Virus record (IMG/VR): IMGVR_UViG_3300038608_000037
Span: 1-33,989 of that record
DNA: 33,989 bases
Reading direction: 5' to 3' (one strand)
Source: a virus
Lineage: Duplodnaviria > Caudoviricetes
Shown here: positions 3,172 to 23,591 of the stretch, in pieces
Position numbering within the stretch: the stretch's first letter is position 1
How the letters are laid out: each line of letters begins with the position of its first letter
Program-made: the position numbers and the translations under genes
Notes under the pieces: model-generated
Told to the model about the DNA's origin: nothing
Databases searched by the model: none
The model's input: only the letters and a program-made list of their open reading frames with translations

Positions 3172-3543
3172 TTAGAACATTTTTATAATGTTTAAAATTG
3201 TATTCTTAATAACTATGGAATCGCTCATTACTCCACTCACAATTTCCACCTGGACACTTATCTTATCGCCTTCTTTAAAATTTGCAATAATAGAAAATGA
3301 TGTAGGAAATATTATCGATTTAGAATGATCAATTGGTGATGTAGTTTGCGCTACCGCTCCTGGGATAGGATTATCATTACAAAAAAGCATGTAAGTAACG
3401 ATCATATCTTTTGGTATTTGGGATGATGAGTTAAATATAATTAAATAGGCGCCATCAGTAGGAATATTATAATTTGTGTTTTGTAAGAATGTGGTGCCGG
3501 TAGCAATCTGTGAGCTACCTACAACTGATGCATAATTATTCAT
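3172..3543 (-). CDS. Hypothetical beta-rich protein (weak BclA-C/C1q-like appearance)
   Basis: IPTDGAYLIIF and FKEGDKISVQV patterns. Coupled to the upstream ORF. Confidence 0.5.
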   Translation of the reverse strand: MNNYASVVGSSQIATGTTFLQNTNYNIPTDGAYLIIFNSSSQIPKDMIVTYMLFCNDNPIPGAVAQTTSPIDHSKSIIFPTSFSIIANFKEGDKISVQVEIVSGVMSDSIVIKNTILNIIKMF

Positions 3544-13495: not shown

Positions 13496-14014
13496 TTAAT
13501 CTTTCTTTAAACTTTTCAAATATAAATTTATAAGTAATTGCTTCTTATAGTTAGATCTTGGATTAATAGTATCTACACCGTCGGTGATAAAATTAGAACT
13601 AGAAATAAAACCAGAAAGACAAGCGATATCCATTAAGATATTATGCATAGACTTATATCGATTAATAAAATCTTCTTTGGTTTTTAAATATTCAGTTTTA
13701 AAGTAATCACCTGTCTTATAAAGAAGTGCCATACCCAAAGCGATCTTTACACTACCGATAAATCTATCTTTAAATCTAGCAGCAGGAGTTTTGCCGAAAT
13801 TTGATCCAGCTAATTCGATATATTCTTCGAGATTATATCGATCTACATTAGGCTTAACTAATTCCAAAACCTTATTAACTTCAGAATTAAGTATAGCTTT
13901 CTGAATTTCTTCATGCTCTGATACAACAGAATTAGAACAAAATAAACCACTTAAGGATTTAATACCATAAGCCTGTGTAGATAAACATAAAAGAAGAAAT
14001 AAAAGTTTTTTCAT
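13496..14014 (-). CDS. Hypothetical exported or membrane protein
   Basis: Classical signal peptide MKKLLFLLLCLSTQAYG. Confidence 0.65.
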   Translation of the reverse strand: MKKLLFLLLCLSTQAYGIKSLSGLFCSNSVVSEHEEIQKAILNSEVNKVLELVKPNVDRYNLEEYIELAGSNFGKTPAARFKDRFIGSVKIALGMALLYKTGDYFKTEYLKTKEDFINRYKSMHNILMDIACLSGFISSSNFITDGVDTINPRSNYKKQLLINLYLKSLKKD

Positions 14015-14117
14015 AGTAATTCCTGTTTTTAATTGCTAAATATATCAATAATTTTAATGAAAACAAATATAGAATAGGAGACATAAATTATAGGAAAAAT
14101 ATAACACATAATTAACC

Positions 14118-15545
14118 TTATTGTATAATTTTCATCCAATTTTCTACAATCCTATAAATATAATCTTTCATAGTAGTCTCACCCACAAGTTGCGCTAAAT
14201 AACCATATGAATCACTATGCATAAACTCATCCACATTCTTAGTACGCGTTATTATATTTTGAGTGAAAATCAACTCAGTCGATTCTTTTTTTGCCAAAAG
14301 GCCTTTGCCGTAATAAGACATTTTCATTTGATTTAAAGTGTATCCTTGCTCTTCCAGAACACTCTCTATACACAGCTCCACAAATCTTTTGCCGGCATCT
14401 AATCCAAATTCGGTAATTATATTTTTATATTCAGTAGAATCTACCAAAGCATCGATATGTGCCAATACTAAATCAGGACACATATTCTTCTCTCCTAAAT
14501 AACCATAAAAAGAAGTACGTACGAAACGGGCTACACCCATTTCCCATAATGCATTTTGCGGTATTACTGAATTTGATTGCGTAAGCATAAACCGATATTG
14601 CTTTGAGAAAATATGCAATGGGTTCTCTTTTCTTATAGCTAAATATGATTCTGGTAACTTATACGAATATGCGATTCGTGGTGGCACTACGTTCACTTCT
14701 TCCTTCTCTTTTTTAGGTTGTGACGTAATAAAAACTTCTTGTAGTTGATAATACGTGCGCCAATCTGGAACCAAATCATACTTATTGCAATATTCTTCAC
14801 ATAAATATTTAAACCAACGGTATGAATGCTTTGTTCCATATTGGTTTTTACTACTATAGCGGAATTGGGTCAAGGCGTAAGAAAGTGCTTTTTGTGGAAA
14901 AACAATAAGTTTAAATTTCTGATCTAATGTCAAATTTAAAGAATTGAGCTCAGATAATTCTTTTTCTATCGAATCTCGCTTCTCTTGTAATACTGACATG
15001 CTTTTTTCGGTAATTTGAATCTTTTTTTTATAACGGCCATTAATACTGTTATTAAAATATAAATAGTTATTTAACTTATTACTATAACTGCTTCTTATAT
15101 CATTCTTTATTAGTGTGATGTCATTTGAACCTGAATATGGTGGATACACCGGCTTACTCATTAACCCTGATGTGCTTAAAAATATACCCAGGTAAATTAA
15201 TACTTTTATTATATCCGGTGTCGGCTTTAATAAGAATTCTGAAACTCGATAGTTTGATGCCCTTTTTACCCCATTAAACTTCTTCGCTATTAACCCCAAA
15301 CCATCCAATTTTTTTATATATCTATTTACTGTCTCTCTTCTAATATTACATTTTTTACCCAACCACTCTTGCGAAAAATATATCTCTTTGTGACATCGGC
15401 CAAATGATATGAAATTACGAATCATGCGACAGAGTCCCCTCTTCGCATTAAAAGAATTTAAATATCTTTTAGCTGTCGTGGAAAATTTTGTAGTTGGAAT
15501 TATTTTTTCTAAAAAGTATTGTTGACTAGTGTTTTTAAATTTCAT
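14118..15545 (-). CDS. Putative replication initiator with N-terminal winged HTH
   Basis: IYFSQEWLGKKCNIRRETVNRYIKKLDGLGLI...N.Y (HTH_36-like). Lies next to a repeat-rich AT region. Confidence 0.65.
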   Translation of the reverse strand: MKFKNTSQQYFLEKIIPTTKFSTTAKRYLNSFNAKRGLCRMIRNFISFGRCHKEIYFSQEWLGKKCNIRRETVNRYIKKLDGLGLIAKKFNGVKRASNYRVSEFLLKPTPDIIKVLIYLGIFLSTSGLMSKPVYPPYSGSNDITLIKNDIRSSYSNKLNNYLYFNNSINGRYKKKIQITEKSMSVLQEKRDSIEKELSELNSLNLTLDQKFKLIVFPQKALSYALTQFRYSSKNQYGTKHSYRWFKYLCEEYCNKYDLVPDWRTYYQLQEVFITSQPKKEKEEVNVVPPRIAYSYKLPESYLAIRKENPLHIFSKQYRFMLTQSNSVIPQNALWEMGVARFVRTSFYGYLGEKNMCPDLVLAHIDALVDSTEYKNIITEFGLDAGKRFVELCIESVLEEQGYTLNQMKMSYYGKGLLAKKESTELIFTQNIITRTKNVDEFMHSDSYGYLAQLVGETTMKDYIYRIVENWMKIIQ

Positions 15546-15800
15546 ATACTTATTCTCGTGTTGAAATACTAATTATCATATTGATATACTAACTTTATGT
15601 TATTCATGTATTAATTCTCGTGTTTATATTAATTTCATTGTTATTCATACGGCTTATTATCGTATCGCTTAATTTTATATTTCATGCACATCCTAGAGTT
15701 ATAATTCATATTGTATAATTTTATTGTGGTAAATTAAATTTTGCGTATTTTATTTCTCTTGTTTCTTGTAAAAATAAGCCGATTTATAGTCGGCTTATTT
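15546..15800. promoter_or_regulatory. AT-rich rep-upstream control or origin-like region
   Basis: Repeated TTCTCGTGTT and TGTTATTCAT. 11-bp inverted repeat at 15772-15782/15790-15800. Confidence 0.35.
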
Positions 15801-15908
15801 CGTTTTATTTAATAAACCAATTGTATTTTTAAATATTATATTCTCATTTTTTCCATTTATCTATTTTTCTTTAAAACTTTCATGGTGTAAAAATTATCAT
15901 TGATTATG

Positions 15909-15941
15909 TTACATATGTGTGTTATATTACATATGTGTGTT
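15909..15941 (+). repeat. 15-bp direct repeat TTACATATGTGTGTT x2, putative operator
   Basis: 15909-15923 and 15927-15941. Related motif at 23001-23032. Confidence 0.55.
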
Positions 15942-15978
15942 TAACATTGCAAGAAAATATAAATGTAAGGGAATAATT

Positions 15979-16236
15979 ATGGAAACAACATTTTCAAAAC
16001 AGAGTATTAATTTTTACGAAAAAGTAGCAGAATTGTGTAAATTGGGTCGATTAGCAAAGCAGGTAGGTAGTAGAAAAAATGCAGAGGATCTTAAAGATAA
16101 AATCTATTTACAAATGGCAGTAATTTGTAACGATTTAAGAGAATTTGAACCAGAATTTAAAGTTGTATATCCTATGTTAGCTGATTTGTATGATAATTTG
16201 CTTGCTTTCTATGATCATAACAATAATAAGAGGTAA
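15979..16236 (+). CDS. Hypothetical protein (start METTFSKQ)
   Basis: ATG at 15979 with AAGGGA RBS, in frame with track ORF 15919. Confidence 0.65.
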   Translation: METTFSKQSINFYEKVAELCKLGRLAKQVGSRKNAEDLKDKIYLQMAVICNDLREFEPEFKVVYPMLADLYDNLLAFYDHNNNKR

Positions 16237-16238
16237 AT

Positions 16239-16517
16239 ATGTTAGTAAATGCTGGGATTTTAGTCATGGGCGTATATGTGACATTTGGTGTAGTGCACTT
16301 GACACATAAATTAATAAAGGATTTTAGAGGGTCTAGAACAAATAAATTAGAATTATTATATAAGATATCTAAATTTGATGATAAAAGGGTGCCAACTATT
16401 ACACAAATTCCTGTGCGAAAACAAACACCTAAATGTGTTATATTACCAACTGATTCTCGGTCATCAGCATTAAGAAAAAAACACGGTCCCCAGCAATCTA
16501 CATCTTTAGTAAAATAA
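16239..16517 (+). CDS. Hypothetical protein with N-terminal membrane anchor
   Basis: GAGG RBS, hydrophobic N-terminus and basic tail. Confidence 0.55.
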   Translation: MLVNAGILVMGVYVTFGVVHLTHKLIKDFRGSRTNKLELLYKISKFDDKRVPTITQIPVRKQTPKCVILPTDSRSSALRKKHGPQQSTSLVK

Positions 16518-16547
16518 TATTGTTATCTACATAAATACGAAAAAATA

Positions 16548-17255
16548 ATGGAAACAGAAAAAATACTCAAGGCTATAGCCGACTTAGCGTCCAAGATAAA
16601 TATAGTACCCGAAGCAACTAGATCAGTTGACTTAAAGCAATTATTTGCTGCATTAGCAAAAGCCCAAGGAGAAATGGAAGTAGCTGGAAAAAAAAGTGAA
16701 AATCCCTACTTTAAAAGCAGATATGCCGATTTAGCAGAAATAGTACGGGCTTCTCGTACTTATCTCTCTAAAAATGGTCTTTCAGTTATACAGCAGATTC
16801 TACCAAATAATGATGGCCAAAGTATTTTACATACTATATTAGCACATGCATCTGGCGAATGGATCTCTTCCCAAATGAGAATTACGCCACCAAAAGCCGA
16901 TATACAGACACTGGGTAGTTATATAACATTTTTACGAAGATATAGTTATGCTTCTCTTGTCGGAATTGTATCGTCAGAAGAAGATGATGATGGTGAAGTA
17001 GCAGTAGCAACAGAGCGCGAGTTATTTGCTAAAGGACCAGCAGAGGTCTATAAACCAAAAAATGAATCATATGATACTGTTTCAAAAGACCAACTCGATG
17101 AACTACAGTATGAGTTAATTAATTATCCTGATATTGCAGAAGAAGTGCTTACAAAAATGAAGATACAAAGCCTCGCAGATCTACCACGTTCTAAGTTTAG
17201 AATATCTATTGAACGAATTAGGGAAATTAAAAATCTAAGAAATAGCGGCAAATAA
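16548..17255 (+). CDS. erf: ERF family single-strand annealing recombinase
   Basis: ALAKAQ, NPYFKSRYADL, L.HASGEWI and Q..GSYITFLRRYSYASLVGI..EDDDG. Confidence 0.92.
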   Translation: METEKILKAIADLASKINIVPEATRSVDLKQLFAALAKAQGEMEVAGKKSENPYFKSRYADLAEIVRASRTYLSKNGLSVIQQILPNNDGQSILHTILAHASGEWISSQMRITPPKADIQTLGSYITFLRRYSYASLVGIVSSEEDDDGEVAVATERELFAKGPAEVYKPKNESYDTVSKDQLDELQYELINYPDIAEEVLTKMKIQSLADLPRSKFRISIERIREIKNLRNSGK

Positions 17256-17273
17256 GACATACTTTTCTAATAA

Positions 17274-17318
17274 AATAAATAGTCCACAGTGTGCGGAGAG
17301 CAATGTGGACTATTTATT
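17274..17318. terminator. Bidirectional terminator-like hairpin
   Basis: Perfect 15-bp inverted repeat AATAAATAGTCCACA/TGTGGACTATTTATT between convergent units. Confidence 0.7.
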
Positions 17319-17337
17319 ATTTAGTTCATGAACAACA

Positions 17338-17455
17338 AGTTTATTTATTCATGTATTTTGAACCTCAGCTGGCTTAAAAGCCAGCGATTCTTGCTTCATT
17401 TGGCAGACCAATATCATTTCCATCCACAAGCTTTAAGACGGACATTCCAGCCGCC
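17338..17455 (-). ncRNA. Orphan IS200/IS605 right end, TnpB omegaRNA-like scaffold (17455-17358) plus putative guide (17357-17338)
   Basis: TTGGCGGCTGGA...GCTTGTGGA...ATGAAGCAAGAATC-GCTGGCTT-TT-AAGCCAGC-TGAGGTTCAA resembles tnpB 3' ends (remnant ILAAG...CG), with a subterminal hairpin and TTCAA end. TATAAT upstream. Confidence 0.7.
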
Positions 17456-17528
17456 AATATTATAAAGAAAGAAAGTGACAAATGATTGCGAATAATATCA
17501 TTTGATAAAAATTTTGGCAATTACATTT

Positions 17529-18092
17529 TTAAACAAAGGTCAGTCCATCAGCATTTGGAATAATAAATGCCGTATTAGCAATTGCACATACCATTCTTAT
17601 ACCTATTGCATCTAAAGCGCCAGTGGATACACTCCCCCCAACTCCCACAGTAGTAATCGCGGTTGTAAGCAATTGCTCATTGCCGATTATATATTGTCCC
17701 GCATTCTGATTTATTTGCCATCCATCTACGGCTGTATCTAATACTAATATTTGAAATGTATCACCAACTGCTGCAATAAGTGGAAGCGTGAAAACTACCG
17801 TTGCTGCGCCATTTACAAAATAACCATTATTACTTACTAAGTTAGTAGCTCCAACAGCTGTTTGCCAAGTAGTAGCTGTTACTGTAGAACCAAGTTGCTC
17901 CCAATTCGATATATTGCTTTCTATCGATGTTAACACATAGGATGTATTAGTTACTTGGTTTACCCATATAGTGCCATATGCTGCTTTATCAGATGTGGTT
18001 GGTGCCCGTTGTGCTATTATTGGTGATGGTGGCTCTTGTATTAAGGCCTGGCTTAATCCATATGCTACTTGTGATCTATAATTTGTACTCAT
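17529..18092 (-). CDS. Putative tail/virion protein (mosaic of two shared modules)
   Basis: N-terminus is homologous to 21412 and 22189; C-terminus is homologous to the C-terminus of 18105-20339. Confidence 0.7.
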   Translation of the reverse strand: MSTNYRSQVAYGLSQALIQEPPSPIIAQRAPTTSDKAAYGTIWVNQVTNTSYVLTSIESNISNWEQLGSTVTATTWQTAVGATNLVSNNGYFVNGAATVVFTLPLIAAVGDTFQILVLDTAVDGWQINQNAGQYIIGNEQLLTTAITTVGVGGSVSTGALDAIGIRMVCAIANTAFIIPNADGLTFV

Positions 18093-18104
18093 TTTTTTCC
18101 CTTT

Positions 18105-20339
18105 TTAAGTAAACGTTAAAGCTCCGCCTGTAGCACATTGAATAACAAATGCAGTATTAGCAATGGCACATATAACCTTTGCAAATTGCCAATTTATCGA
18201 TACTGTTGTAGCTACGTTACCACCAGTACCAACAGTAGTTACCTGGGGTGTTGTAGCGGCGCTTGAATTACCAATTATATATTGACTAGCATTTTGATTT
18301 ATTTGCCATCCACCAACGGCGGTATCTAATACTGCAATTTCAAAAGTATCGCCAACAGCAGTAGTTGTAGGCAATGTAAAATTAACCGTAGAAGCACCAT
18401 TAACAAAATAACCATTACCTTTTACTAAATTGGTAGCACCAGTAACAACTTGCCACGTTGAACCACTTGTAGAAGTTACACCTAATTGTCCAGTAGTAGG
18501 ATCTATTGTCACTAATTGTGTATTTGATACGGTATTTCCTGCGATGCCCTGTATAAAGCATGAAGTTGACGTAACTACAGCTGGATAAGCACCAGACGCT
18601 ATATTACCTATTCTTATTACGTTATTTTCAGCTATTGTTCCATTTTGACAGCCAAGAATAAGATTATTATTTTCAGTAGTAGTATAATTACTACCAGATC
18701 CATTCCCAAGGCATGTATTATATACCCCAGAAGCCATCTGACGTAATGATTCAAAACCAATGGCTATATTTGAATCATTTTGACCTGTATTGGGTCCCAT
18801 AAAATTAACCAATGAAGATTGGCCAATTGAAATATTATTTATACCAAACTGCATTATCCGCCCAGATTGCTCTCCAATGCATACATTATTTGATCCGGAA
18901 TCTATAAATTGACCAGCCTGCGGCCCGATGCATACATTTTCATTTCCAGAAGTAATACCCTGGCCAGCTGAAACACCAATGCATGTATTGACACCGCCCG
19001 TGGTAAGTGAATTTAATGATGCAAATCCAATGCCGATATTATCAAAAGCAGTAGTGAATGTTAATGTACCAGCATCATTTAAGAAAATATTGCCAGTATT
19101 AGTCGCATATATTAAGTTTTTTGTACCACTACCAGATTTAATTATTCCTTCTGTACCAGTGCTATTAGCAAATGGAATAACAATATTTCCAGCCGTAGCT
19201 GTAATATCACCGGTTTGTGATGTAATAAATCCTGCAGTAGTCCCAGCTGTGAATGACCCTGAAATAGACACCGTATCATCAAGATTTACCGTTACTATAT
19301 TGGTCATAGCAACAGTGTTAATATTAGATCCACCCGAAATGATTATAAGACCATCATTCGGAACTGCAGTACCAGTATCACCATCAAATTGATCGGCAAA
19401 GCCACTTAATGCGATGGATCCCAATTTATCAGTGCTATCAACTGTAACAACATATGCAGTATTTAATGTTCCAGTGCCATAGATACCACCGAAATAAGCC
19501 GTATTTTGTTGAAATGCTCCACTACCACTACTACCTATTCTGATTGTATTGTTATCTCCAACCACACCAGTAGATCCAATTAAAATATTATTTGATTCTG
19601 AGGTAAGTAATGCATTACCCGATGATGTGCCTATTGATACATTATTACTTCCAGTAGTTATTCCAACCAATGAATCAGACCCAAATGCCGTATTATTACT
19701 TGCCGTTGTGGCACTTAACATAGCATCAAATCCAAAAACAGTATTATTGTTACCGGTGGTGACAGCATTTAAAGCGCTATTACCCACAACAGTATTTTCT
19801 ATCGCTACGCCAGGTGTTAATGTAAAATTACCGGCACTCGTCCCTATAAACACATTACCGGCAAAATTTTGAATAAATGGCAAAGAATTTATTGTTATTA
19901 CACCTTCATCAGCAGTAGATAAAGTAGTAGGCAAATTAAAATTACCTGCACTAGCTGTTATATCTCCCGTTACTGATGTTATAAAACCAAGTGTGGTGCC
20001 AGCGGTAAATGAACCAGAAATAGATACATCATCGTCTAAGATTACTTCAACAGTATTGCCAGATGCTGCTGTATGTATATTGGCACTACCTACAATATTT
20101 AATATACCGCCAACTGGTATAGCTGATCCTGTATCACCATCAAACTGATCAGCCGTGGAACCACTTGATGTAATAGTCAAAGTATGTGTTAATGGATCAC
20201 CTGTAACAGTAATAAGTCCAGCTCCCACAACATTTATATTTCCTAGGATAGGTGAAACAGCACCGCCTGTATTACCCGTCAGGGTTAATACACTTCCAGC
20301 AGGACTAGTGCCATTAAAAAAAGAACCTGATTGACTCAT
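18105..20339 (-). CDS. Tail fibre/spike-like protein with Gly/Asn beta-helical repeats
   Basis: Many N(T/V)x(I/V/F)GxxA repeats, and a duplicated ~72-aa ADQFDGDTG...GDITA.AGN block. Confidence 0.75.
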   Translation of the reverse strand: MSQSGSFFNGTSPAGSVLTLTGNTGGAVSPILGNINVVGAGLITVTGDPLTHTLTITSSGSTADQFDGDTGSAIPVGGILNIVGSANIHTAASGNTVEVILDDDVSISGSFTAGTTLGFITSVTGDITASAGNFNLPTTLSTADEGVITINSLPFIQNFAGNVFIGTSAGNFTLTPGVAIENTVVGNSALNAVTTGNNNTVFGFDAMLSATTASNNTAFGSDSLVGITTGSNNVSIGTSSGNALLTSESNNILIGSTGVVGDNNTIRIGSSGSGAFQQNTAYFGGIYGTGTLNTAYVVTVDSTDKLGSIALSGFADQFDGDTGTAVPNDGLIIISGGSNINTVAMTNIVTVNLDDTVSISGSFTAGTTAGFITSQTGDITATAGNIVIPFANSTGTEGIIKSGSGTKNLIYATNTGNIFLNDAGTLTFTTAFDNIGIGFASLNSLTTGGVNTCIGVSAGQGITSGNENVCIGPQAGQFIDSGSNNVCIGEQSGRIMQFGINNISIGQSSLVNFMGPNTGQNDSNIAIGFESLRQMASGVYNTCLGNGSGSNYTTTENNNLILGCQNGTIAENNVIRIGNIASGAYPAVVTSTSCFIQGIAGNTVSNTQLVTIDPTTGQLGVTSTSGSTWQVVTGATNLVKGNGYFVNGASTVNFTLPTTTAVGDTFEIAVLDTAVGGWQINQNASQYIIGNSSAATTPQVTTVGTGGNVATTVSINWQFAKVICAIANTAFVIQCATGGALTFT

Positions 20340-22938: not shown

Positions 22939-23052
22939 TTCTCTCCTATAAATCAGTTTAGGTAAAGTAAAACTTATAGTAATTTAAATTGCAAATTCAG
23001 CACACATATGTTACATTTGTGGTATATGTTACTTAAGTAAAAAGGGAATGAT

Positions 23053-23256
23053 ATGGGAAAGATAGTACAGCCAATAAATGGTGAAGAAACAAAACAAAAA
23101 AGGATCTGTTTTAGGGGATATTTTCCGGTTGAAATACATTCAGTAATGAAAATGCATGCAGGTTTAAAGGGACAAACTTTAACTGAGTGGATAACAAAAG
23201 CGATTGTAGAACAATTAGGAAGAGAAAATACTTTAATTAGAGATAAAACGTTTTAA
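23053..23256 (+). CDS. Putative ribbon-helix-helix (Arc/HicB-like) DNA-binding regulator
   Basis: ICFRGYFPVEIHSVMKMHAGLKGQTLTEWITKAI fits a beta-alpha-alpha RHH pattern. Confidence 0.6.
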   Translation: MGKIVQPINGEETKQKRICFRGYFPVEIHSVMKMHAGLKGQTLTEWITKAIVEQLGRENTLIRDKTF

Positions 23257-23420: not shown

Positions 23421-23591
23421 ATGTGGTTGCTAGTTTTAATCATATTAGGTACATACCTTTACTTTATAAATCCAACACTTTTAGCCATTATAGTTCTTTT
23501 TTTTGTAGCTAATCCTATATTTATTCTTGTATTATTAGCAATCATATTTTTATTAGCATACATAGGAAACCAACAAAATAATGATTATTAA
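23421..23591 (+). CDS. 56-aa very hydrophobic membrane protein (not in the ORF track)
   Basis: GGAG RBS. MWLLVLIILGTYLYFINPTLLAIIVLFFVANPIFILVLLAIIFLLAYIGNQQNNDY. Confidence 0.6.
   Translation: MWLLVLIILGTYLYFINPTLLAIIVLFFVANPIFILVLLAIIFLLAYIGNQQNNDY

What the first reader, a model, noticed from the sequence alone, without database searches (positions are those of the whole stretch)
17274..17464. Orphan TnpB-type omegaRNA unit whose guide matches the phage's own rep-upstream region
Seen (minus strand): TATAAT (17464-17459), then ~98 nt resembling an IS200/IS605 tnpB 3' end and right end (ILAAG remnant, ATGAAGCAAGAATC, hairpin 17368-17385, terminal TTCAA), then flank, then a 15-bp terminator hairpin. 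No tnpB or tnpA is recognisable in the closed genome. The flank starting exactly after TTCAA (AATACATGAATAA, 17357-17345) matches 15612-15600 perfectly for 13 nt. The match extends to 20 of 22 positions with one bulge and one mismatch, and lies ~55 nt upstream of the rep start. The 5' flank of the target is GAATT. Established: TnpB guides derive from the sequence flanking the right end, and nuclease-dead TnpB derivatives (TldR) act as RNA-guided repressors. Inference: a phage-encoded guide that borrows a host TnpB-family protein to regulate its own replication gene, to target related phages, or to titrate host TnpB. Caveats: my rough estimate of a chance 13-mer match is about 1% and higher in AT-rich DNA, GAATT is not a TAM I recognise, no good -35 is visible, and the guide can fold back on 17326-17334.
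Basis: partly seen in the sequence, partly recalled or inferred. Interest (0 to 1): 0.8.

Follow-up and report, generated by a model that had tools for sequence, protein, structure and literature searches.

The report
Stranded TnpB guide RNA in phage
A soil phage carries the intact guide-RNA end of a chlamydial-type jumping gene without the nuclease gene, and its 13-base match near the phage's likely replication gene is real but lacks the adjacent motif the nuclease is predicted to need, so it is likely a coincidence and not a regulatory switch.

Summary
The scaffold is real: 17455-17358 (minus) is an intact IS605/TnpB omegaRNA, about 71% identical to IS605 ends in environmental Chlamydiae, keeping 26 of 27 modelled pairs, 7 through double changes. 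The complete phage has no tnpB, tnpA or left end. The 13-nt match 55 nt upstream of the rep-like gene is real and unique (chance about 0.1-3%), but all 16 related elements with a readable left end use TTTAT as target motif, and the self-match is flanked by GAATT. The match sits in a duplicated ribosome-binding/start-codon motif; 1 of 53 ordinary omegaRNA flanks shows an equally long motif-less match. Unrelated orphan omegaRNAs occur sporadically in this phage family (2 of 49 whole records) and none has a self-target. Best reading: an immobilised IS605 relic whose guide is the insertion-site flank; if loaded by a host TnpB it would cut the empty allele of sibling phages, not its own rep region. 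Standalone omegaRNAs are known, and this scan noted similar phage orphans on other DNA. Expression and close relatives could not be tested.

The parts
17492..17520 (-). Best sigma-70-type promoter candidate for the RNA (TTGCCA-17-TATTAT, TG extension); overlapped by a small inverted repeat
   Evidence: 10 of 12; consensus match only, 20 sites found against 23.2 in shuffles
17459..17466 (-).
   Evidence: 7 of 9 bases also match tnpB codons of a related element, so ambiguous
17358..17455 (-). omegaRNA scaffold: last codons of tnpB (ILAAGMSVLK) plus IS605 right end; stem 1, pseudoknot, stem 2, stem 3 base, right-end hairpin
   Evidence: 71% to L332; 26 of 27 pairs; 7 double and 2 single changes, none newly broken
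17358..17385 (-). Right-end hairpin with bulged T and terminal TTCAA (element end)
   Evidence: flanks of the loci diverge right after TTCAA (one of 34 ends at the contig edge)
17342..17357 (-). Predicted 16-nt guide (flank of the right end)
   Evidence: position by analogy to ISDra2 (PMC10097598, passages); sequence
17327..17335 (-). Arm that can pair with guide positions 5-13 (9 bp, -6.9 kcal/mol)
   Evidence: 3 of 200 shuffles as good
17274..17318 (.). Long A/T-flanked hairpin, probably a two-way terminator shared with the convergent erf gene
15591..15612 (-). Self-match (13 of 13 at 15612-15600; 20 of 22 with one bulge); contains the ATG of a 12-codon micro-ORF
15613..15617 (-). 5' flank of the self-match, GAATT; not the family's TTTAT
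15541..15629 (-). Direct repeat (27 nt, 81%, 62 nt apart): one copy holds the self-match and its flank, the other is the ribosome-binding site and start codon of the rep-like gene
   Evidence: family D1
14118..15545 (-). 475-aa gene with N-terminal HTH; replication-initiator role is only weakly supported
   Evidence: HTH_Crp_2, below cut-off; phrog_186 DnaD-like, E 4e-4; 4 relatives
16548..17255 (+). ERF single-strand annealing protein, convergent with the RNA
23518..23533 (-). Second near-match to the guide, 15 of 16 with a mismatch at position 7, flank CTAAT

Best explanation
The unit is an intact TnpB guide-RNA scaffold from a chlamydial-type IS605 element, left in a phage with no tnpB, tnpA or left end, whose guide is likely just the DNA that flanked the old insertion site and whose self-match is predicted to be unusable because it lacks the TTTAT motif. 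Shown: scaffold identity and intact fold, loss of the rest of the element, family motif TTTAT, GAATT at the self-match. Inferred: an IS605 from the host landed between the last tail gene and the terminator and was cut back to its RNA end; the RNA is probably made from the upstream promoter or as the 3' end of the late transcript; a compatible host TnpB could load it in trans (about even odds); its only licensed target would then be the empty allele (TTTAT followed by the guide) in co-infecting sibling phages, which is ordinary TnpB homing. The rep-upstream match most likely arises because both stretches are AT-rich start-codon-like sequence.
For: Scaffold pattern found 34 genome loci, 21 titled Chlamydiae/Chlamydiales/Simkaniaceae, 12 Verrucomicrobia (one of these genomes, G008, is drawn with the phylum of G006), 1 Actinomycetes; they end tnpB genes reading AAGMSVLKACG. 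TTTAT precedes the left end in 7 of 7, 3 of 4 and 3 of 4 copies of three multi-copy groups (the two misses show no left end in the 2 kb aligned), in L330 and in two gene-less elements L356 and L399. None of 300 TTTAT sites in the phage is followed by more than a 9-of-12 or 4-nt match to the guide. The flank GAATT is part of a direct repeat whose other copy is the rep start. 1 of 53 ordinary omegaRNA flanks has a 13-nt motif-less match in its own locus. Orphans in G001, G002, G004 (whole) and G003 (partial record) have no seed-anchored self-match of 9 nt or more. A left-end-less orphan also sits on a chlamydial genome contig (L369). TnpB needs a TAM and about 12 TAM-proximal pairs (PMC10097598, passages); standalone omegaRNAs work in trans (PMC10691335, passages).
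Against: The match starts exactly at the guide's first base, covers the whole seed and reaches a gapped score met by only 7 of 5000 shuffled guides and 0.3-1% of genome positions. The nearest element is only about 71% identical, so the true parent could have another motif. No empty allele was found: best motif-plus-guide match in 204 family sequences was 8 nt. The four other left-end-less phage orphans keep a scaffold end with none of the coding region, and one sits in the same slot beside erf (L244), which may point to selection; my search could only see such remnants.
Confidence: 0.65

Rival explanations
1. Phage-competition guide with self-immunity: the RNA is loaded by host TnpB and cuts the rep-upstream region of sibling phages that carry TTTAT there, while this phage's own copy is safe because it lacks the motif.
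For: 13-nt seed match at an essential control region; intact scaffold; precedent for motif-and-seed self-avoidance in fliC-TldR prophages (PMC10705468, passages) and for viral CRISPR mini-arrays that borrow host effectors (PMC11656645, passages).
Against: GAATT differs from TTTAT at 4 of 5 bases and matches the sister repeat, so it does not look recoded; no motif-flanked match above 8 nt in 204 family sequences; the 2 exact 18-mers in viral contigs lie in unrelated viruses; other orphans match no relative beyond 11 nt.
Confidence: 0.12
2. One reading: the RNA guides a host TnpB or nuclease-dead TldR to the phage's own rep-upstream site and tunes replication-gene expression.
For: Match 55 nt upstream of the rep-like start, full seed; TldRs repress from short seeds, and one TldR guide forms a stem-loop before binding (bioRxiv 10.64898/2026.09.22.753285, passages).
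Against: TldR binding is TAM-dependent and the family's motif is absent; with an active TnpB the match would be self-destructive; I did not look for a dead TnpB in candidate hosts; the scaffold is absent from 47 of 50 whole records searched.
Confidence: 0.07
3. Decoy: an abundant scaffold with a self-folded guide soaks up host TnpB, like an RNA anti-CRISPR, protecting the phage from off-target cutting.
For: Intact scaffold, promoter candidate, terminator, 9-bp fold-back over the seed; repeated independent orphans without a found target in the family; Racr precedent for CRISPR.
Against: No evidence that host TnpB harms these phages; orphans are rare (2 of 49 unbiased records); the fold-back is modest (-6.9 kcal/mol).
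Confidence: 0.1
4. The flank is a true copy of the rep-upstream sequence moved by a past rearrangement (for example one-ended transposition), so the match is homology without function.
For: 20 of 22 identity with one bulge, rarer than a plain 13-mer.
Against: TnpA inserts 3' of TTTAT, which the rep-upstream site lacks; similarity stops after 22 nt.
Confidence: 0.06

Closest known systems
Standalone omegaRNAs of OMEGA systems (PMC10691335, passages on standalone omegaRNAs)
   Same: Guide-RNA scaffold with no effector or transposase, predicted to be used in trans by a compatible TnpB.
   Different: Those are described as mobilised and in the same genome as the effector; this one has no left end and sits in a phage, so the effector must come from the host.
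PATE-like non-autonomous IS200/IS605 elements (bioRxiv 10.1101/2023.03.14.532601, passages)
   Same: Gene-less IS605 derivative that keeps the right end and omegaRNA.
   Different: PATEs keep both ends; none is recognisable upstream here, unlike L356 and L399, which are true PATEs of this family.
ISDra2 TnpB omegaRNA (PMC10097598, passages)
   Same: Overlap with the tnpB 3' end, stem 1 with pseudoknot to the terminus, stem 2, flexible stem 3, right-end hairpin, flank-derived guide.
   Different: Family motif TTTAT instead of TTGAT; no tnpB in cis.
Chlamydial IS605-type elements found here (L326, L331, L332, L343)
   Same: About 71% scaffold identity, same terminal peptide and TTCAA end.
   Different: They carry tnpA, tnpB and a left end; none is the direct parent.
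Prophage fliC-TldR guide RNAs (PMC10705468, passages; met as L009)
   Same: Phage-borne TnpB-type guide RNA of the same scaffold class.
   Different: TldR is encoded next to its guide, the guide is conserved and its target has a TAM; none of this holds here.
Viral CRISPR mini-arrays and Racrs (PMC11656645, passages)
   Same: Protein-less phage RNA that could borrow or block a host RNA-guided nuclease.
   Different: CRISPR repeats, not an omegaRNA; targets in related viruses are demonstrated there and not found here.

Membership tests
IS200/IS605 TnpB omegaRNA | Overlaps tnpB 3' codons and ends at the right-end TCAA | tested here: met
IS200/IS605 TnpB omegaRNA | Conserved fold with pseudoknot and right-end hairpin | tested here: met
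   26 of 27 pairs, 4 of 4 pseudoknot pairs; the structure was drawn by me from these alignments, so the controls are lenient
IS200/IS605 TnpB omegaRNA | Expressed and bound by TnpB | not testable with these tools
   needs RNA-seq and RIP
Standalone omegaRNA | No tnpB or tnpA in cis | tested here: met
Standalone omegaRNA | Compatible effector available in the same cell | tested here: inconclusive
   G009 holds both related IS ends and a contig with a 62% identical portal, but the actual host is unknown
PATE / non-autonomous IS605 | Left end with TAM and subterminal hairpin like the right end | tested here: not met
   only about 70 nt lie between the tail gene stop and the scaffold, without the left-end hairpin seen (read by eye; no blastn hit of 22 nt or more listed for that stretch, list cut at 60 rows)
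TldR RNA-guided repressor locus | Adjacent nuclease-dead tnpB | tested here: not met
TldR RNA-guided repressor locus | Target with cognate TAM in a promoter or 5' UTR | tested here: not met
   flank GAATT against family TTTAT; the parent's own motif is inferred, not measured
TldR RNA-guided repressor locus | Guide and target conserved together across relatives | not testable with these tools
   DNA of the close relatives (P0002, P0006) could not be fetched
Mini-array-like inter-phage weapon | TAM-flanked target in related phages | tested here: inconclusive
   none above 8 nt in 204 sequences, but all are distant relatives (erf 65% or less, portal 79% or less)

The most novel reading that the evidence does not exclude
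Tailed phages of environmental Chlamydiae repeatedly keep only the guide-RNA end of host IS605 elements as fixed, protein-less RNA genes that hijack host TnpB to cut co-infecting sibling phages; here the guide is aimed at the siblings' replication-gene control region while the phage's own copy is immune for lack of the TTTAT motif. This would be the TnpB counterpart of viral CRISPR mini-arrays.
Probability: 0.13. Interest if true: 0.8.

Novelty: new member of a known kind. Interest (0 to 1): 0.3.

Why it matters
As a relic it is ordinary, but it gives a host clue: the scaffold type is almost confined to environmental Chlamydiae and kin, and related portals lie in chlamydial genome bins, so this tailed phage family likely infects them. 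If the orphan RNAs are loaded by host TnpB, phages would have a roughly 100-nt route to RNA-guided competition without carrying a nuclease, which is testable with the chlamydial TnpB and TTTAT motif identified here.

Tried and rejected
Rfam: no family at gathering score in the window and nothing relevant at 15000-18500. blastn of the scaffold: no plasmid match, only chance-level phage matches. Tight scaffold patterns: 0 hits in viral contigs and genomes. Rep-like protein in viral contigs: no relative. The two erf relatives first found (L001, L002) lack the scaffold. The metagenome scan stopped after 35 of 64 parts and returned no erf relative above 66%; no further scan was allowed. Sequencing runs: no RNA holder listed; contigs of four runs that may be the source match the stretch, and two runs of another study hold a close relative at low depth without cover of the RNA or the self-match, which says nothing either way. 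Host target: motif plus 12 guide bases gave 0 exact and 14 one-mismatch hits in 401 genomes of the phylum of G006 against 13 control hits, and 0 in 5 genomes: chance level. Empty allele in viral contigs: 2 hits, unrelated viruses. A simple hairpin pattern over the erf loci gave 9 hits against 2-9 in shuffles and was dropped. R1 hits at L195 (right end only, E 9e-4) and L208 (E 0.29) were not counted as orphans. The idea that TTTAT at 17466 marks a precise left-end deletion holds for the window and L007 but not L292, and may be tnpB codons; kept as weak. Promoter scans of three other orphans found nothing above shuffles. One genome (G015) was not scored.

Full report
Setting. The window is a complete circular phage genome (107-nt terminal repeat, 34.7% GC; 100% complete) held by soil metagenome runs that may be its source, with P22-like portal, terminase, tail and ERF genes. 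The finding lies on the minus strand between the last tail-like gene (stop 17529) and the convergent erf gene (stop 17255).

Observation. The 13-mer after TTCAA occurs twice in the genome, at 17357 and 15612. Its chance level is 0.4-1.1% by Markov models and 1.3-3.2% by the genome's own repeated 13-mers; 50 of 5000 shuffled guides reach 13 nt and 7 of 5000 reach the gapped score, which 0.26% of positions and 0.98% of AT-rich positions outside the tail paralogues also reach. So the match is unusual for one test, but not for a scan that flags many such elements. No tnpB or tnpA is in the genome.

Identity of the scaffold. Rfam has no match. A motif scan of viral contigs gave 39 loci in which the same motifs mostly close tnpB genes or follow fliC-linked TldR-like genes (the TldR label is my reading of the flagellin-plus-short-TnpB layout). 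A narrower pattern over 185,579 species genomes gave 34 loci: 21 titled Chlamydiae, Chlamydiales or Simkaniaceae, 12 Verrucomicrobia, 1 Actinomycetes. These are IS605-type elements whose TnpB ends in AAGMSVLKACG, the peptide the window's remnant encodes. Best identity is 71-72%. On an alignment of 16 sequences the structure has 93.5% paired cells and 12 of 27 pairs with double changes; the window keeps 26 of 27 pairs, the missing one being unpaired in most rows, with 7 double and 2 single changes and no new break. The fold matches the ISDra2 omegaRNA described in PMC10097598 (passages). Because the changes at the 5' end are also synonymous for TnpB, they show an intact sister element, not selection after orphaning.

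The target motif. Aligning copies of the same element gives TTTAT at the left boundary in 7 of 7, 3 of 4 and 3 of 4 copies (the misses have no left end in range), in L330, and in two gene-less elements, L356 on a chromosome and L399 on a phage contig of this family: 16 of 16 readable left ends. The self-match is preceded by GAATT and the second near-match (23533, 15 of 16) by CTAAT. None of the 300 TTTAT sites in the phage is followed by a usable match. TnpB needs the motif and about 12 proximal pairs; TldR also binds in a TAM-dependent way (PMC10705468 and bioRxiv 10.64898/2026.09.22.753285, passages). The caveat is that the direct parent was not found and its motif is inferred.

Why the match may exist. 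The self-match lies in a 27-nt direct repeat whose second copy is the ribosome-binding site and ATG of the rep-like gene; it holds the ATG of a 12-codon micro-ORF, and the guide itself reads as ATG-Asn-Lys-stop, a context shared with real starts at 3543 and 12583, which were the next-best near-matches. GAATT therefore looks native, not recoded. As an empirical control, 1 of 53 omegaRNA flanks in viral loci of 8-20 kb had a 13-nt match without a motif.

Relatives. A covariance model (R1, 41 sequences including the window, L007 and L292) was run over 81 viral and 80 metagenome erf loci, 27 portal loci and 15 fetched stretches. It found unrelated scaffolds in G002 (after the rep-like gene), G003/G005 (the same slot beside erf, a longer scaffold type), G004, and a true PATE in G402; G001 came from the motif scan. 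Over 50 whole records, chosen as the longest of the 107 viral loci, 3 match, 2 of 49 without G001; no TnpB match in 51 records (no positive control in that call) or PF07282 in G002-G005 (control rang). None of these guides has a self-target (G003 is 54% complete), a match above 11 nt in relatives, or a TTTAT-flanked match above 8 nt in 204 family sequences. All these relatives are distant. Close ones exist (rep 80%, erf 94%) but their DNA could not be fetched, so guide-target covariation is untested.

Host. Portal relatives occur in 5 of 400 scored genomes of the phylum of G006, best 62% on a 35-kb contig in G009, the genome of the Simkaniaceae-titled loci that also holds the nearest IS ends. 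Bins can be wrong, so a chlamydial host is an inference. No host target for the guide rose above control.

Mechanism. Shown: intact scaffold, no effector, no left end, family motif, motif-less self-match. Inferred: insertion of a host IS605 at the end of the late operon, loss of all but the RNA end, transcription from 17520-17492 or by read-through, termination at 17318-17274. If a host TnpB loads it, as standalone omegaRNAs and PATE RNAs are reported or expected to be (PMC10691335 and bioRxiv 10.1101/2023.03.14.532601, passages), it would cut the empty allele in sibling phages, akin to the TnpB drive between plasmid copies (bioRxiv 10.1101/2025.02.20.638934, abstract and outline only). The 9-bp fold-back over the seed could dampen this, though a working TldR guide also folds.

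Novelty. Standalone omegaRNAs are a known kind. Four paper searches on TnpB (listings only, apart from the papers cited) showed no report of a phage omegaRNA using host TnpB; a cyanophage preprint only speculates on phage TnpB (10.64898/2026.02.14.705889, passages). The library lacks most subscription papers, and I opened no supplements. Earlier notes of this scan describe similar orphans in other phages; none concerns this genome or sequence. Verdict: real element, ordinary class, headline self-targeting not supported; a competition role stays open at about 13%.

Noticed in passing
window 1704-465 (minus), major capsid gene: The gene is broken twice: a 38-nt insert (1440-1403) with a P1-like hairpin on the upstream exon, an in-frame stop and a final G but no catalytic core, then a 17-codon exon, then a group I intron-like stretch of about 250 nt (Rfam RF00028, E 5e-5, below gathering score). 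Similar inserts of about 30-40 nt at the same codon, followed by a full intron, are seen in L407, L429 and L400; L318 has a long intron there and L412 none. Possible core-less mini-introns spliced by the neighbouring ribozyme; worth its own look.
   Followed up: partly
L007:4976-5073, L292:7656-7752, L244:7314-7524, L302:8521-8655: Four further left-end-less, tnpB-less omegaRNA-like remnants of different types in phages of this family; L244 sits in the same slot beside erf, with a 16-25-nt flank before a terminator.
   Followed up: yes
L399:6034-6290 and 13887-14200 (G402:C145): A PATE with TTTAT, left end, omegaRNA and right end inserted in a gene of a related phage contig, and a second IS200/605-like end pair further on.
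   Followed up: partly
L391-L396: Tailed-phage portal genes 30-62% identical to the window's in 5 of 400 genomes of the phylum of G006, pointing to tailed phages or prophages of environmental Chlamydiae.
   Followed up: partly
window 15890-15930 and 23000-23030: A repeated motif ACACATATGT/TAACATATGTGTG lies upstream of both plus-strand early regions; possible operator sites for a phage regulator such as the 67-aa gene at 23053-23256.
   Followed up: no
window 15541-15700: Several degenerate ATGAA repeats and the direct repeat D1 upstream of the rep-like gene; possible origin or translational control region.
   Followed up: partly
L005, L014, L019, L020, L029, L034: One 220-kb viral contig holds at least six copies of one TnpB right end, some with full tnpB and some internally deleted.
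   Followed up: no
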